Assembly (NCBI GenBank): GCA_044892525.1
Contig: CM097885.1
Span: 19,904,001 to 19,968,000 of the forward strand
DNA from: Schmidtea polychroa
Lineage: Eukaryota
DNA: 64,000 bases
Reading direction: 5' to 3'
Made by a program: the position numbers and the translations under genes. The first letter of the stretch is position 1, and each line of letters opens with the position of its first letter. The notes beneath the pieces were generated by a model, which searched no databases, was not told the origin of the DNA, and saw nothing but the letters and a program-made list of their open reading frames with translations. This document shows, piece by piece, positions 16,712-20,112 of the stretch.

Positions 16712-16819
16712 TTTTTATTTTTAATTTTAAAATATCTAGTTATTGTTTATATTAGATGATTTTAATGAACTCTTGCTAAAGTTGTATATAAAGAGTAAAA
16801 TTTCATAAATGATTTAATT

Positions 16820-17257
16820 ATGCTTGCAAATATAAATTATCGAGGAAATTTTGATGTTTCAAAAATGAGGTTCCCACCAGGAAAACCACAGCAAATTGTC
16901 GATAGAAGCGGGAAATATCCGATAATATTTTTCAAGACTGGCAAATGCAGAATTATGGGATGTAAGGAACCATTGGATATTAATAAATTACAATATCGAA
17001 TCAATAATATTAAAATTCAATCAATTACCGTTACTATGGATATGGGACATACTATCAATTTATACAAAATATCGAGAAAATGTGATTGTATGTTTGAACC
17101 GGAATTGTTTCCGGCACTAAGACTATTAAAATGTAACCCTATATGTGTCAATGTGTTTTCAAGTGGAAAGGTTGTCATGCTTGGGTTGAGAAATTTAGAC
17201 TATAGAGAATTTGTTAACAATGTTCGGAATGAGTTAAATTCATTGGTCGATTTCTAA
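16820..17257 (+). CDS. TATA-box-binding protein (TBP)-like protein
   Basis: 145 aa with two TBP repeats: IFFKTGKCRIMG and KIQSITVTMD...FEPELFPAL...VFSSGKVVMLG (canonical TBP: KIQNMVGSCD...YEPELFPGL...IFVSGKVVLTG). TATATAAA upstream at 16785. Confidence 0.88.
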   Translation: MLANINYRGNFDVSKMRFPPGKPQQIVDRSGKYPIIFFKTGKCRIMGCKEPLDINKLQYRINNIKIQSITVTMDMGHTINLYKISRKCDCMFEPELFPALRLLKCNPICVNVFSSGKVVMLGLRNLDYREFVNNVRNELNSLVDF

Positions 17258-17332
17258 TTGGTTAATTTCTAATTGGTTAATAATAATAATATTAACTGTT
17301 TAGATGTCATTAATACTAGCGCGGCAAAATCA

Positions 17333-17639
17333 ATGTCTGAGATCGATAATTACGGTAAATTTTTAATTTATATATATTTTTTATATATTTTATAGATGAA
17401 TATTCCAAATGATTGCCTCAAGTATTTCTATCCTCAATTGAATGAAGGACAGAGATCCAGAGATTATACCAGATTTGGTATACAAGAATCTGGATGTTCG
17501 ATATATTGAATCAATTCCAATGAGTAGATCGACAGAATGCAGAAAGAAATGGAATATCCATGTATTATTGGATGCAGTTGGTCGTTATCAGCGATATGTA
17601 GAATGGAATTTAGTAAAAACACTTAGAAACTTATTCTAG
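17333..17639 (+). pseudogene. Possible damaged spliced hypothetical gene
   Basis: ATG...TAC G|gtaaat...ttatag| intron-like segment (~17355-17395) precedes a 65-aa ORF, but joining them needs a frameshift and a stop read-through. Confidence 0.3.
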
Positions 17640-17704
17640 GATTGTTGATTTAAATTAATAAATATTTTTTTATGTATTTTGTTTTTTTATATATTGATGA
17701 CCAA

Positions 17705-17705
17705 A

Positions 17706-17794
<89 letters not shown>

Positions 17795-17813
17795 TAATAA
17801 TAATAATAATAAT
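17705..17813. repeat. (AAT)n microsatellite
   Basis: Seen directly. Confidence 0.95.
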
Positions 17814-17936
17814 CATACATGTGCAACATTAATGCAATTTAAACAAAGACACATTAATGCAAACCATGTGCAACATTGATGCAATTTAAACTTTAATCTG
17901 ATTGGTTGTTCCATTTCATTTTAATCATAATTCACG

Positions 17937-18344
17937 ATGGTCAAGAAAAGCACTGAAAAACCGAAAGATGAACTTGTTCAGCCTGTTCAAATGTTCCACA
18001 ACTACAAAATGTATTTTTTAAAAGAAGAAATCAATATGAAATTGGTTGCACCGGTCAAGTTAATTCCAACTCAATTTCAATTCTTATCCGGCACGCTTTC
18101 AATGGTAGATGTTAAAACCATAGATGATGTTTTCAAACGGTTGAATTCAAATCTATCATGTAATCAAAATGCATGGTTCAACAACCGATATGCAAAATTT
18201 TATGATGCCTTTGATGAAATCAGTTTCAAAGAAAACGAAAATTGGTATATAACAATTGCAATCCAAGGATATAAAGTCGATAATAATGATGTGTATTCTC
18301 CAATTTGGAAAATTATGTCTGCTAGGCTTTCACAACTATTTTAA
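17937..18344 (+). CDS. Hypothetical Polinton protein (possibly OB-fold/SSB-like C-terminus)
   Basis: 135-aa ATG-initiated ORF, CTGATTGG box 35 nt upstream, AATAAA just after the stop. The fold guess comes from the ITIAIQGY...SPIWKI beta pattern only. Confidence 0.7.
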   Translation: MVKKSTEKPKDELVQPVQMFHNYKMYFLKEEINMKLVAPVKLIPTQFQFLSGTLSMVDVKTIDDVFKRLNSNLSCNQNAWFNNRYAKFYDAFDEISFKENENWYITIAIQGYKVDNNDVYSPIWKIMSARLSQLF

Positions 18345-18496
18345 TGTATTTAATAAATGTATATAATGTATTTTAATAAATGTATTTAATGTATTTAATC
18401 TTATTTATTTTATTAATATTAATGCAACAGTAATGCAAATTTAACAAAGACATTCTATAAACAAACTTACATTATAGTTTAAAAGTGTTAATAAAA

Positions 18497-18868
18497 ATGA
18501 CTACAGAAAAAGGTTAATTTTGATTAATAACTTACCCAATTATTTATTATTTAGAAATTGTAATCAACTTTTTGTTGGAAAAATTGGCAGAAATAGCTGG
18601 TGTAAATGTTGAGGATATATTATCTGTTGCAAATGCATTAAATATAGGCTGGATAGTTGAAAGTCAAGATTCAGGATTTGATGAAAGTGAAGTGAGTCAA
18701 GAAATTGATGTAGAAATTGATGGAGAAAAACCCAAGAAATTAGTGAAAACACCCAAGAAATTAGTGAAAACACCCAAGAAATTAGTGAAAACACCCAAGA
18801 AATTGATGGAGAAAACATCCAAGAAATTGATGGAGAAAACAATCAAGAACAACCTAACGATTGTATAG
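18497..18868 (+). CDS. Acidic/lysine-rich protein with KTPKKLV repeats; probable 42-nt intron at 18513-18554
   Basis: ATG ACT ACA GAA AAA G|gttaat...atttag|AA ATT GTA is in frame with ORF 18572-18868; contains DSGFDES and 21-24-nt tandem repeats. Confidence 0.7.
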
Positions 18869-18975
18869 ATCATGTAGTTGATAATATTATGAAATGTGGA
18901 GATGACTATTGTGAATGTGTTAATAAATGTTAAATTTTAAAATTTGTTTTTTATACATAAGAAAAATAACAAAAA

Positions 18976-19161
18976 TTAATATTTATTTAAATATTTAAAT
19001 AACATATACAATAAAACAACTCCTGTTGTGAGTTTAATATAGTTTTTCATTTTTCCTTTGATTTCATCAGTTTCTTTAGCATTGCGGGCGAGTTGATTGA
19101 GTGTATCCCATCCGCCATTATCTTCTATCCATGGACTAAACTTGGATTTGATTATCTAAAA

Positions 19162-19201
<40 letters not shown>

Positions 19202-19502
19202 TTACTTCTAAAGACCACTGATAATAATGTTCTGAGTCATGTTGGCCTTTCGCAATGATTATCTTCATGTAGGTGAACCCTACAATAATTCTTGTCCATT
19301 GCATGTCTTCATCGCAGAGACATTGAAATATATTGTTAAAATAATTCTTCTTTGATTCAAGACAATCCATATCAAGCATGCTCTGGTAGTCGATGTGGTT
19401 GCCTTCAATAATTTGTTCGGTCCGATTGACCAGGAAATTAAGGCTGTCGACTATATTCGCTGTGACTAGTCCATTTAGAATGTTTTCAATAAATTTAAAC
19501 AT
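18976..19502 (-). CDS. Bcl-2 family protein, two exons (19502-19206, 19155-18976), 158 aa
   Basis: BH1-like FQCLCDEDMQWTRIIVGF; after a 50-nt GT-AG intron, BH2 FSPWIEDNGGWDTL and hydrophobic tail YIKLTTGVVLLYMLFKYLNKY*. Confidence 0.88.
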
Positions 19503-19611
19503 TTTTTACAATAATTTTTAATATACTGTCTTATTTATACTACTGTGTGTGTAATATGATTCTGATTGGTTGATAGACTATAAATGTAAAACATAATAGA
19601 TTTGATACAAC
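19503..19611. promoter_or_regulatory. Candidate bidirectional promoter between the Bcl-2-like and glycoprotein genes
   Basis: TATAAAT on minus (19533-19539), ATTGG/CCAAT (19565-19569), TATAAAT on plus (19579-19585). Confidence 0.6.
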
Positions 19612-20112
19612 ATGAAAACTATATTTCTATTGCTAATTATTATAAGGAATGTGTGCTCGCACAATACAACAATAACGGTGGAGTCTTTTAATAAATCAAT
19701 ATGTATTTGTCCAAATACCGCCAAGTTGATGGATATTTTATATATTCTTGACAAACCAAAATGGGCAAAGCATCCAGGAAAAAGAATATCCCAAAGATTG
19801 GAGAATTTAGAAAACAGCTATGACCTATCTTTTGAATATATACAAAATATAAAATTTAAATTGATTGATCATATTGAGGTTTTCAATAACTCAATTGTTG
19901 AAAATAAAAAGAATATGAAAATTATTGATAAGAAACATGATCATTTGTTAAGAAAGATTGATTTAATAATATTCGAAATTCGAACAATAAAAGAATCGAT
20001 AGAAAATTTGAAAACCAATTCAACTTTACCAATTTCAAACAAGATGGCAGCAAATATGAGTACATCAATATTTAAATGGCCATTGTTAATTTTAAATTAT
20101 TTCATTGTTTAA
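19612..20112 (+). CDS. Putative secreted or surface coiled-coil glycoprotein
   Basis: Signal-peptide-like MKTIFLLLIIIRNVCS, N-glycosylation sequons (NTT, NKS, NNS, NST, NMS), heptad-rich middle and hydrophobic C-terminus. Confidence 0.7.
   Translation: MKTIFLLLIIIRNVCSHNTTITVESFNKSICICPNTAKLMDILYILDKPKWAKHPGKRISQRLENLENSYDLSFEYIQNIKFKLIDHIEVFNNSIVENKKNMKIIDKKHDHLLRKIDLIIFEIRTIKESIENLKTNSTLPISNKMAANMSTSIFKWPLLILNYFIV

What the first reader, a model, noticed from the sequence alone, without database searches (positions are those of the whole stretch)
16712..20112. A distinct 'host take-over' accessory module on a Polinton: TBP-like + Bcl-2-like + degron/CDK-motif protein + glycoprotein
Seen: all core genes (6414-16711) are on minus and the morphogenesis genes are tightly packed, while the right 3.4 kb holds about six short, individually promoted genes (TATA and CTGATTGG boxes, own AATAAA), mostly on plus. 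Inference: an early-region-like cassette covering transcription, apoptosis, ubiquitin/cell-cycle and the cell surface, comparable in function to adenovirus E1/E3. This combination is the best candidate here for an undescribed system.
Basis: partly seen in the sequence, partly recalled or inferred. Interest (0 to 1): 0.88.

Follow-up and report, generated by a model that had tools for sequence, protein, structure and literature searches.

The report
Polinton accessory block: TBP, SSB, Bcl-2
One end of a virus-like jumping gene (a Polinton) carries its own small TATA-binding protein, a likely DNA-replication helper, a cell-death regulator and a few poorly understood small genes; the genes are real, but add-on gene sets of this sort are already known for such elements.

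Summary
The window holds a 17.2-kb Polinton/adintovirus-type provirus (4538-21742; about 1-kb inverted ends, 6-bp target duplication GTCAAT). The 3.4-kb block is present in at least 37 other near-identical copies.

- **Genes confirmed:** a short TBP-like protein (certain), a spliced Bcl-2 homologue (well supported), and a signal-peptide/N-glycan-sequon protein that is an orphan.
- **Genes re-read:**
  - orf3 (17937-18344) is most likely a T7-gp2.5/ASFV-CP312R-type single-strand DNA-binding protein, which is a replication gene and not host take-over.
  - The "CDK motif" (TPKK repeats) exists only because this copy is frameshifted. In 19 of 20 copies the gene encodes an acidic protein with a C-terminal Cys cluster.
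  - The DSGxxS degron is not conserved.
- **Conservation:** TBP-like, SSB-like and the acidic protein recur in two further Polinton families of this genome and in metagenomic Polinton contigs. There TBP usually sits just upstream of the packaging ATPase. Bcl-2 recurs in one further family, while others carry RING, E2, phosphatase or LRR genes instead.
- **Not host transduction:** the element Bcl-2 is only 22-28% identical to the best Bcl-2 genes elsewhere in the genome.

Adintovirus Bcl2, IAP and "Oncoid" genes are already published, and so are TBP genes in related MELD viruses. I rate this a new variant of a known kind, of moderate interest. Expression timing is untested.

The parts
4538..21742 (.). 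Whole Polinton/adintovirus-type provirus, with termini AGTAGAGACAAG...CTTGTCTCTACT. It is flanked by the 6-bp target-site duplication GTCAAT (4532-4537 and 21743-21748).
   Evidence: Local alignment of the two ends and inverted repeats.
4538..5522 (.). Left terminal inverted repeat, in blocks with microsatellites between them.
   Evidence: pairs I1-I3, 93-96% complementary.
20612..21742 (.). Right terminal inverted repeat.
16364..16711 (-). First part of the FtsK/A32-type packaging ATPase (P-loop GPSGSGKT). The reading frame is broken in this copy by a 14-nt length difference (16389-16402) against 19 of 19 sister copies.
16820..17257 (+). Short TBP-like protein, 145 aa. It has a full C-terminal TBP repeat plus an N-terminal half made only of strands. 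A TATATAAA box lies 35 nt upstream of the ATG.
   Evidence: Pfam, PDB phmmer, AF2, Foldseek, 69 homologues, promoter scan.
17442..17639 (+). orf2, 65 aa in this copy. It is a frame-shifted variant of a 97-aa ORF in sister copies. It is weakly similar to the ORF that follows TBP in family 2. Function unknown.
   Evidence: No Pfam hit and no tblastn hit in the metagenome loci.
17898..17907 (+). CTGATTGGTT (an inverted CCAAT box), 30 nt upstream of the orf3 ATG (its ATTGG core starts at -36).
17937..18344 (+). orf3, 135 aa: a predicted OB-fold protein of the gp2.5/CP312R type, i.e. a likely ssDNA-binding replication protein.
   Evidence: Alignment A2, AF2 pLDDT 92, fold searches, homologues next to TBP in 20 metagenome loci.
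18497..18512 (+). orf4 exon 1 (MTTEK, then a GT donor).
   Evidence: inferred splice.
18555..18933 (+). orf4 exon 2. It encodes a conserved N-terminal domain, an acidic QEI(D/S)GEN repeat linker and a C-terminal NDCIDHVVDNIMKCGDDYCECVNKC cluster. It is frameshifted in this copy at 18729-18736, which creates the TPKK repeats and an early stop.
19206..19502 (-). Bcl-2-like exon 1 (99 codons), with a BH1-like QWTRIIVGF. A TATAAATA box lies 37 nt upstream of the ATG.
19156..19205 (-). Predicted 50-nt intron (GTAAAT...(TTA)n...TTTTTTAG).
   Evidence: The frame and the BH2 motif continue only after removing it. There is no RNA evidence.
18976..19155 (-). Bcl-2-like exon 2, with BH2-like WIEDNGGWD and a C-terminal hydrophobic tail.
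19562..19571 (+). Shared CCAAT box between the divergent Bcl-2-like and gp genes. Each side has its own TATA box.
19612..20112 (+). gp, 166 aa. It has an N-terminal hydrophobic signal-like segment, five N-X-S/T sequons, a heptad-rich middle and a short C-terminal hydrophobic tail. It is an orphan protein.
20405..20414 (+). Third CTGATTGGTT box, followed by TATATA, just inside the right inverted repeat. No gene has been assigned to it.

Best explanation
The block is the non-virion gene region of a young, high-copy Polinton of the adintovirus type. It mixes two layers.

**Layer 1: lineage-conserved genes that serve the element itself**
- A minimal TBP keeps the DNA-facing sheet and the EPELFPAL stirrup. 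It has lost the helices of the N-terminal repeat.
  - It most likely binds the TATA boxes that sit 28-45 nt upstream of the element's own start codons and recruits host TFIIB and Pol II (inferred).
- A gp2.5/CP312R-like OB-fold protein most likely coats displaced single strands during protein-primed replication by the element's PolB (inferred from fold).
- An acidic protein with a conserved N-terminal domain and a C-terminal four-Cys cluster is present. Its function is unknown. It may be regulatory and E1A- or Oncoid-like in make-up only.

**Layer 2: family-specific cargo**
- A tail-anchored Bcl-2 homologue most likely keeps the cell alive while the element is expressed (inferred by analogy with viral Bcl-2s).
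- A small secreted or membrane-anchored N-glycan-sequon protein has unknown function.

Sister families swap layer 2 for RING, E2, phosphatase or LRR genes.

The genes, folds, homologies, copy number and synteny are shown. All biochemical activities and the timing of expression are inferred.
For: **Element identity**
- Inverted ends, a 6-bp target duplication and AG..CT termini.
- Adenain, rve integrase with a weak chromo hit, and a P-loop ATPase.

**Copies**
- 38 of the 40 scored matches (including the window itself) cover the whole 3,401 nt at 94-100% identity. There were 4,200 first-look candidates.
- Substitutions between 20 copies are only 0.07-0.5% in genes.
- ORFs are intact in 19/20 (TBP), 19/20 (orf3), 19/20 (orf4), 20/20 (Bcl-2) and 19/20 (gp) copies.

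**TBP-like**
-.
- Residues E93, E95, F97, F113 and F38 are invariant in 46 sequences.

**TBP synteny**
- 38 of 80 metagenome loci, and 13 of 15 loci of 5 kb or more, also hold a Polinton core gene.
- In 25 of the 27 loci with both genes, TBP is co-directional with the ATPase; in 24 of those it lies 84-1,526 nt upstream.

**SSB (orf3)**
- AF2 pLDDT 92.
- The top VIA matches are ASFV CP312R (Z 7.5), DUF2815 (7.3), the Enc34 SSB (7.1) and T7 gp2.5 (6.6), followed by dozens of SSB, RPA and PriB OB folds.
- Foldseek ranks the Enc34 SSB first, with probability 0.97.
- 28 BFVD hits at E<=0.001 are all giant-virus proteins.

**Bcl-2**
-.
- An intronless homologue in family 3 scores PF00452 32.7 bits, E 1.1e-7. 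It is 27% identical to the window protein and lies next to SSB-like and TBP-like genes.

**Swapped cargo**
- A RING gene (PF13920, E 4.7e-10) in family 2 and an E2 (PF00179, E 1.6e-12) in L043.
- RING, DSPc and LRR genes in other loci.
Against: - There is no expression or splicing evidence. No RNA run is on record, and the runs that were laid are contigs.
- Within-family dN/dS is uninformative because the copies are too young (ratios 0.3-1.8 on a handful of changes). Intact ORFs in this family alone therefore do not show selection.
- The SSB assignment rests on Z values below 8, and Foldseek PDB gave no hit at E<=0.001.
- The Bcl-2 fold was not modelled. The window's exon 1 alone is below the Pfam cut-off, and exon 2 alone gives no Pfam hit.
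- gp has only one relative among 1.84 billion representatives, and no usable Atlas hit.
- PF00452 was found in 0 of 196 non-core ORFs scanned from the metagenomic relatives.
- The N-half/C-half repeat alignment of the TBP-like protein is not above shuffles. The equivalence of F18 to a DNA-kinking Phe is therefore only a guess.
Confidence: 0.6

Rival explanations
1. One reading: all six genes form one early, adenovirus-E1/E3-like host take-over cassette. It would cover transcription, apoptosis, ubiquitin/cell cycle and the cell surface.
For: - The genes are short, each has its own TATA box, and the block is separate from the virion gene string.
- TBP-like and Bcl-2-like are real.
- Sister elements carry RING and E2 genes in the same region, so a ubiquitin theme exists in the lineage.
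Against: - The CDK motif is a frameshift artefact and the degron is not conserved.
- orf3 looks like a replication SSB.
- TBP-like lies inside the packaging gene string in most relatives.
- There are no timing data.
Confidence: 0.2
2. Some of the small ORFs (gp, orf2, perhaps orf4) are not functional genes. They are open only because the copies are very young.
For: - Copies differ by 0.5% or less, so ORFs have had no time to decay.
- gp and orf2 have no homologues beyond close relatives.
- orf2 shows frame-changing length variants among copies.
Against: - gp stays open, and keeps all five sequons, in a relative at 84% identity.
- orf4 has six homologues at 52-60% identity. The same C-terminal motif recurs in family 2.
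- ORFs of 116-166 codons are unlikely by chance in 72-74% A+T DNA (composition; inference).
Confidence: 0.12
3. The block is a piece of host chromosome picked up by one element copy (transduction).
For: TBP and Bcl-2 are families of cellular origin.
Against: - 37 other full-length copies carry the block.
- TBP-like is only 21-26% identical to cellular and archaeal TBPs, and it forms its own family linked to Polinton genes in metagenomes.
- The element Bcl-2 is 22-28% identical to the best-scoring Bcl-2 genes elsewhere in the genome.
Confidence: 0.02

Closest known systems
Adintovirus/Polinton accessory genes (Starrett et al. 2021, PMC8502044; Buck et al. 2024 preprint 10.1101/2024.03.25.586562)
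   Same: - The element type matches: PolB, chromo-integrase, adenain, FtsK ATPase, hexon and penton.
- Published maps carry Bcl2, IAP, SSDBP and "Oncoid" labels. TBP is labelled on related MELD viruses.
- Buck et al. note anti-apoptotic and candidate oncogene homologues and zinc-finger regulators (passages).
   Different: - Here a short TBP family, a gp2.5-like SSB and an acidic Cys-tail gene travel together across three families in one genome and in metagenomic relatives.
- TBP was not found as a label on animal adintovirus maps in the stored part of the supplement (0 occurrences; the file was cut when stored).
- orf4 lacks LXCXE.
Adenovirus early genes (E1A, E1B-19K, E2A DBP, E3 glycoproteins); recalled, no call
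   Same: - The functional roles run parallel. Bcl-2-like corresponds to E1B-19K, the SSB to E2A DBP, the acidic Cys-cluster protein loosely to E1A, and the small glycoprotein loosely to E3.
- One Atlas neighbour cluster mixes PF01691 (E1B_19K) and PF00452 (score 0.83, a lead only).
   Different: - There is no sequence homology to E1A, E3 or DBP.
- Adenoviruses use the host TBP, whereas this element encodes its own.
- Timing is unknown here.
Giant-virus (Nucleocytoviricota) gp2.5-like SSBs and viral TBP-like proteins, e.g. ASFV CP312R (PDB 8hw5)
   Same: - The orf3 model matches CP312R (Z 7.5, 125 residues aligned) and 28 giant-virus proteins in BFVD.
- Large DNA viruses are known to encode their own TBP-like factors (recalled).
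   Different: - orf3 is far smaller (135 aa) and has no acidic C-terminal tail.
- The element is a 17-kb integrating provirus that must use host Pol II.
Cellular TBP (PF00352)
   Same: - The saddle fold matches, with TMq 0.66-0.78 to 44 solved TBPs.
- The EPELFPAL stirrup and the F-x-S-G-K strands are kept.
   Different: - It is 145 aa against about 180 for a cellular core.
- The N-terminal repeat has strands only, with no H1 or H2.
- It is 21-26% identical to solved TBPs.

Membership tests
Polinton/Maverick (adintovirus type) | Long terminal inverted repeats with a 6-bp target-site duplication. | tested here: met
   Inverted repeats of 93-96% complementarity. Ends lie at 4538 and 21742, flanked by GTCAAT on both sides.
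Polinton/Maverick (adintovirus type) | Protein-primed PolB, rve integrase (with chromodomain), adenain protease, FtsK-type ATPase, and major and minor capsid genes. | tested here: met
   - rve E 2.6e-8, Chromo E 7e-4 (below cut-off), P-loop ATPase, Peptidase_C5 E 1.4e-7.
- PolB and the capsid genes are recognised only by 25-59% identity to metagenomic Polinton contigs and by a DTDS motif seen in the translation. Pfam gave no polymerase or capsid hit.
TBP (PF00352) | Profile match above the curated cut-off. | tested here: met
   58.5 bits against a 22.9 cut-off, in 2 stretches.
TBP (PF00352) | A two-repeat saddle, with helices H1 and H2 on each repeat. | tested here: not met
   The saddle sheet and the whole C-terminal repeat are present. 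The N-terminal half has four strands and no helix. The overall fold still matches TBP cores.
TBP (PF00352) | Two pairs of DNA-kinking Phe residues and the TFIIB-contacting EPELF stirrup (residue roles recalled). | tested here: inconclusive
   F97 and F113 (C repeat) and F38 are invariant, and F18 is nearly so. EPELFPAL aligns to the archaeal EPEQFPGL. The equivalence of the N-half residues is not supported statistically.
TBP (PF00352) | Binds TATA DNA. | not testable with these tools
   Needs a DNA-binding assay.
Bcl-2 family (PF00452) | Profile match above the curated cut-off. | tested here: met
   - Window exon 1 alone scores 16.4 bits, and exon 2 alone gives nothing.
- Sister copies whose intron keeps the frame match profile positions 6-100 at 32-34.5 bits, against 31.4.
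- The family-3 intronless homologue scores 32.7 bits.
Bcl-2 family (PF00452) | BH1 and BH2 motifs and a C-terminal membrane anchor. | tested here: met
   QWTRIIVGF at residue 68, WIEDNGGWD at residue 108, and a hydrophobic tail around residues 141-153 of the spliced 158-aa product.
Bcl-2 family (PF00452) | The helical-bundle fold. | not tested
Bcl-2 family (PF00452) | The conserved intron just after the GGW of BH2, as in cellular genes (recalled). | tested here: not met
   The predicted intron lies 16 codons before that Trp. Family 3 has no intron.
T7 gp2.5-like / CP312R-like SSB | An OB fold with the gp2.5-type helix insertion. | tested here: inconclusive
   The top four VIA hits are of this class at Z 6.6-7.5. 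Foldseek PDB's best hit is E 0.015. Z below 8 can reflect a common arrangement.
T7 gp2.5-like / CP312R-like SSB | An acidic C-terminal tail (recalled). | tested here: not met
   orf3 ends ...MSARLSQLF, with no acidic run.
"Oncoid" class of Starrett et al. (LXCXE + CK2 site + paired CXXC) | An LXCXE motif. | tested here: not met
   There is no L-x-C-x-E in the 121-aa exon-2 product of sister copies, read by eye. The Cys cluster is C-x11-C-x4-C-x-C.
   The Ser is not conserved in 6 homologues. TPKK occurs only in the window copy's shifted frame, i.e. 1 of 20 copies.

The most novel reading that the evidence does not exclude
A whole lineage of animal-genome Polintons carries its own stripped-down TATA-binding protein. 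This protein has lost the helices through which cellular regulators (TAF1, NC2, Mot1) grip TBP (recalled), but it keeps the DNA-facing sheet and the TFIIB stirrup.

It would let the element start transcription from its own TATA promoters regardless of host TFIID control. Together with a private SSB and a Bcl-2 survival factor, this would make a self-sufficient expression and replication kit. That kit could explain how the family reached thousands of near-identical copies in this genome.
Probability: 0.25. Interest if true: 0.7.

Novelty: new variant of a known kind. Interest (0 to 1): 0.45.

Why it matters
Polintons sit at the root of many eukaryotic DNA viruses, yet almost nothing is known about how they are expressed.

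- **A handle on expression:** a conserved, element-encoded minimal TBP placed next to TATA-box promoters gives a direct, testable way to study Polinton transcription.
- **A handle on replication:** the SSB does the same for protein-primed replication.
- **How cargo changes:** the swap of Bcl-2, RING, E2, phosphatase and LRR genes between sister families shows how these elements sample host-interaction genes.
- **A natural study system:** this genome has about 4,000 first-look matches (only 40 to 150 of them scored) and copies that differ by 0.5% or less.

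Tried and rejected
- **RNA evidence:** no RNA holder is listed. The four runs laid are contigs. Among the 15 joints shown, with 158 more not shown, none matches the predicted introns. This says nothing on expression either way.
- **Complex prediction, TBP-like with the acidic orf4 protein:** no verdict (score 0.02 against a mark of 0.34; the alignments were not used). This is no evidence either way.
- **Bcl-2 exon 1:** phmmer against PDB sequences gave 0 hits at E<=10. 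The word-based homologue search gave only 2 near-identical hits.
- **gp:** no usable Atlas hit. The Pfam hits are weak, coiled-coil type only.
- **Viral contig scan for TBP-like:** 1 locus at 26% identity on a 44.7-kb contig. It was not analysed further, and its 29 ORFs were left out of the Pfam scans.
- **Pfam scan of relatives:** 196 of the 261 listed non-core ORFs of 80 aa or more were scanned.
  - Left out were the 29 ORFs of L021, 6 already scanned, and about 30 antisense or nested ORFs dropped by hand.
  - PF00452 was found in 0 of the 196.
- **Within-family dN/dS:** uninformative.
- **Internal repeat alignment of TBP-like:** not above shuffles.
- **CTGATTGG box:** absent from family 2 and from the close metagenomic relatives L031, L043 and L056; single copies occur in the distant L089 and L073. 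It is specific to this family.
- **Earlier findings of this scan:** nothing on this genome, sequence or topic.
- **Literature searches:**
  - For Polinton/Maverick/adintovirus together with Bcl-2, TBP, TATA-binding protein, SSB or accessory genes, only the Starrett paper and its preprint link these elements to TBP or Bcl2.
  - The Buck et al. preprint mentions only anti-apoptotic and candidate-oncogene homologues; 'TBP', 'TATA' and 'Bcl' do not occur in its main text.
  - Supplements of bioRxiv preprints could not be read and may hold gene tables that bear on this.

Full report
**What is there**

The window contains a complete Polinton/Maverick of the adintovirus type at 4538-21742.
- Its ends are inverted repeats of about 1 kb in blocks (93-96% complementary).
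- The termini are AGTAGAGACAAG...CTTGTCTCTACT, and a perfect 6-bp duplication, GTCAAT, flanks both sides.
- All on the minus strand, and overlapping or abutting, lie:
  - PolB (6414-10376)
  - an adenain-type protease (11429-11788; PF00770, E 1.4e-7)
  - a capsid protein (11844-13052)
  - a small basic protein (13049-13438)
  - a penton-like protein (13431-14477)
  - an rve integrase with a weak chromo hit (14447-15532)
  - a 154-aa protein (15588-16052)
  - the start of a P-loop packaging ATPase (16364-16711)
In this copy the ATPase frame is broken by a 14-nt length difference against 19 of 19 sister copies.

**Copies**

The 3,401-nt block is not unique.
- Of the 40 matches scored (4,200 first-look candidates), 38 cover the whole block at 94-100% identity. 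That count includes the window itself. Two further matches are partial.
- Nearly all of the "5%" difference is microsatellite and indel length. Substitutions between 20 aligned copies are 0.07-0.5% in genes and 0-2.3% between them.
- The family is therefore very young. Within-family dN/dS (0.3-1.8 on a handful of changes) says nothing about selection, and intact ORFs in these copies alone are weak evidence.
- ORFs are intact in 19/20 (TBP), 19/20 (orf3), 19/20 (orf4; the window is the exception), 20/20 (Bcl-2, both exons) and 19/20 (gp) copies.

**TBP-like gene (16820-17257, +)**

- Pfam TBP scores 58.5 bits, E 6.2e-16. 35 solved TBPs match by sequence.
- 69 database homologues of 96-223 aa all carry PF00352.
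- With a 46-sequence alignment, AlphaFold gives pLDDT 95.1 and pTM 0.83. All 44 Foldseek PDB hits at E<=0.001 are TBP cores (TMq 0.66-0.78, 21-26% identity).
- The C-terminal 85 residues are a full TBP repeat (S1-H1-S2-S5-H2). The N-terminal 58 residues contribute four strands and no helix.
- Invariant residues include E93, E95 and F97 of EPELFPAL, F113 of F-S-S-G-K, and F38 of the matching N-half strand.
  - From recalled knowledge of TBP, these are the TFIIB-contacting stirrup and DNA-kinking phenylalanines.
  - The N-half equivalence is not statistically supported.

**orf3 (17937-18344, +)**

- It has no Pfam hit.
- Homologues of 25-38% identity lie next to TBP-like genes in 20 metagenomic loci.
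- With an 18-sequence alignment, the model has pLDDT 92.
- Foldseek against the PDB gives no hit at E<=0.001, but it ranks the phage Enc34 ssDNA-binding protein first (probability 0.97, E 0.015).
- The Foldseek-independent search ranks ASFV CP312R (Z 7.5), a DUF2815 phage protein (7.3), the Enc34 SSB (7.1) and T7 gp2.5 (6.6) on top. Dozens of SSB, RPA, PriB and LEF-3 OB folds follow.
- Against predicted viral structures, there are 28 hits at E<=0.001, all giant-virus proteins.
- Z below 8 is not proof, but the hits are functionally coherent. An element that replicates with a protein-primed PolB needs such a protein. I read orf3 as an SSB with about 0.7 confidence. That moves it from "host take-over" to replication.

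**orf4 (18497-18512 + 18555-18933, +)**

- In 19 of 20 copies, the two-exon reading gives a 127-aa protein with three parts:
  - a conserved N-terminal domain (EKLAEI(A/S)GV..EDILS..NALNIGW);
  - an acidic QEI(D/S)GEN repeat linker;
  - a C-terminal NDCIDHVVDNIMKCGDDYCECVNKC cluster.
- The window copy differs in length by 8 nt inside the repeats. It slips into the frame that reads KLVKTPKK, and it then stops early. The "CDK motif" is thus an artefact of one broken copy.
- Six homologues at 52-60% identity keep the N-terminal domain and the Cys tail. They read D(S/T)GFDD-EEE where the window has DSGFDES, so the degron is not conserved.
- There is no LXCXE, so it does not meet the published "Oncoid" definition, although its make-up is similar.

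**Bcl-2-like gene (19502-19206 and 19155-18976, minus)**

- Exon 1 alone gives PF00452 at only 16.4 bits.
- After a 50-nt GT..AG intron, the frame continues with WIEDNGGWD and a hydrophobic tail.
- In sister copies whose intron length keeps the frame, the Pfam model matches positions 6-100 across the intron at 32-34.5 bits. That is above the 31.4 cut-off.
- All ten best language-model neighbours that carry a family are Bcl-2 clusters or share its clan (best score 0.90, 200 of 256 shared features).
- The spliced product is only 22-28% identical to the best-scoring Bcl-2 genes elsewhere in the genome. It is therefore not a recent host capture.
- The fold itself was not modelled.

**gp (19612-20112, +)**

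- It has an N-terminal hydrophobic segment, five N-X-S/T sequons, a heptad-rich middle and a short C-terminal hydrophobic tail.
- It has one relative among 1.84 billion representatives. That relative is 84% identical, open throughout, and keeps all five sequons.
- "Glycoprotein" is a fair guess. Its function is unknown.

**orf2 (17442-17639)**

- This is the most variable stretch of the block.
- A 97-aa ORF is present in about 8 of 20 copies. The window holds a frame-shifted 65-aa variant.
- It weakly resembles the ORF that follows TBP in family 2 (E 1e-4 in a pairwise test).

**Promoters**

- TATAWA lies 28-45 nt upstream of the ATG for TBP, orf4, Bcl-2 and gp, and for 7 of 12 genes overall. 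Background is 4.8% (P about 3.5e-7; the window was chosen after looking).
- Exact CTGATTGGTT (an inverted CCAAT box) occurs three times in the block and once elsewhere in the 64 kb.
- One of these boxes is shared by the divergent Bcl-2 and gp genes, each of which has its own TATA box.
- The box is specific to this family: it is absent from family 2 and from the close metagenomic relatives checked, and occurs once each in two distant contigs.

**Relatives**

*Metagenomic contigs*
- 177 stretches encode a TBP-like relative, and the best 80 were kept.
- 38 of the 80 loci, and 13 of the 15 loci of 5 kb or more, also hold a Polinton core gene.
- In 25 of the 27 loci with both genes, TBP is co-directional with the ATPase; in 24 of those it lies 84-1,526 nt upstream.
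- The more distant clade adds parvovirus-type PLA2 (14 loci), C2H2 zinc-finger (9 loci) and KilA-N (4 loci) genes around it.

*This genome*
- A second family (L118-L123) has the same core order. Its right end carries TBP (53% identical), an orf2-like ORF, an orf3-like C-terminus, an orf4-like gene with the CIDHIVENIMK motif, and a RING protein (PF13920, E 4.7e-10) in place of Bcl-2.
- A third family (L126) has an intronless Bcl-2-like gene (PF00452, 32.7 bits; 27% identical to the window's). It lies back-to-back with SSB-like and TBP-like genes.

*Other cargo*
- Metagenomic L043 carries a ubiquitin E2, and other loci carry RING, dual-specificity phosphatase or LRR genes.
- Bcl-2 was found in 0 of 196 scanned non-core ORFs of the metagenomic relatives.

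*Reading*
- TBP, SSB and the acidic Cys-tail gene are lineage-conserved. Bcl-2 and gp are family-level cargo.

**Literature**

- Starrett et al. 2021 (PMC8502044; sections 3.2 and 3.4 read in full, plus passages and supplement searches) describe adintovirus Bcl2 and IAP homologues, "Oncoid" genes and SSDBP labels. They label TBP on MELD viruses with adintovirus-like PolB.
- The preprint version shows the same (passages).
- Buck et al. 2024 (passages) mention anti-apoptotic and candidate oncogene homologues and zinc-finger regulators in adintoviruses. "TBP", "TATA" and "Bcl" do not occur in their main text.
- Wallace et al. 2021 (passages) do not mention these genes.
- Six searches found nothing else that links Polintons to a TBP.

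**Verdict**

- This is the non-virion gene region of a known kind of element, and several of its gene types are already published.
- New here are three things:
  - a conserved trio of a stripped-down TBP, a gp2.5-like SSB and an acidic Cys-tail protein;
  - the swapping of Bcl-2, RING, E2 and other cargo among sister families;
  - a very young, very large family in one genome.
- Expression, timing and all activities remain untested.

Noticed in passing
L124 (G000:C1:6410000-6419999), 6688-9999 +, and dozens of similar open frames listed: A multi-copy giant open frame (about 3,050 aa in many copies) combines three features. These are a CCHC zinc knuckle (E 6e-4), a Bcl-2-like stretch (25-29 bits, below cut-off) and a Monjiviricetes-type viral fusion glycoprotein domain (PF24664, E 3e-15). 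It looks like a retroelement or virus-like element with its own Bcl-2-like and fusogen parts.
   Followed up: partly
L126 (G000:C1:15404000-15408000) 1778-3364, with at least 8 similar loci: A third Polinton family carries an intronless 144-aa Bcl-2-like gene, divergent from SSB-like and TBP-like genes. In this copy, no ATPase was found within 10 kb on either side.
   Followed up: partly
Whole genome G000: About 4,200 first-look candidates for the block and 3,957 for a TBP-like protein were found in a 781-Mb genome. Only 40 and 150 of them were scored. If most are real, Polintons make up several percent of this genome.
   Followed up: no
G000:C4:89.9-90.8 Mb (L102-L107): A cluster of at least 7 near-identical Bcl-2 genes (68 bits) with canonical NWGRI and NGGW motifs lies within 0.9 Mb. 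It is either a tandem or segmental duplication or another repeat family.
   Followed up: no
window 20405-20460: A third CCAAT box followed by TATATA lies just inside the right inverted repeat. No convincing ORF follows it. It may be a promoter reading into the repeat.
   Followed up: no
window 9700-10100 (minus strand, PolB N-terminal region): There is a run of about ten EVVNS repeats in the N-terminal part of PolB. A poly-Ile run interrupts the integrase core at around residue 130 of the 14447-15532 ORF. Both are microsatellite expansions inside coding sequence.
   Followed up: no
L079, L081, L083, L089, L096 and others (metagenome loci): Distant TBP-bearing Polinton contigs also encode KilA-N/DUF3627 and C2H2 zinc-finger proteins beside the parvovirus-type PLA2 gene. 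These elements therefore carry several DNA-binding regulators.
   Followed up: no
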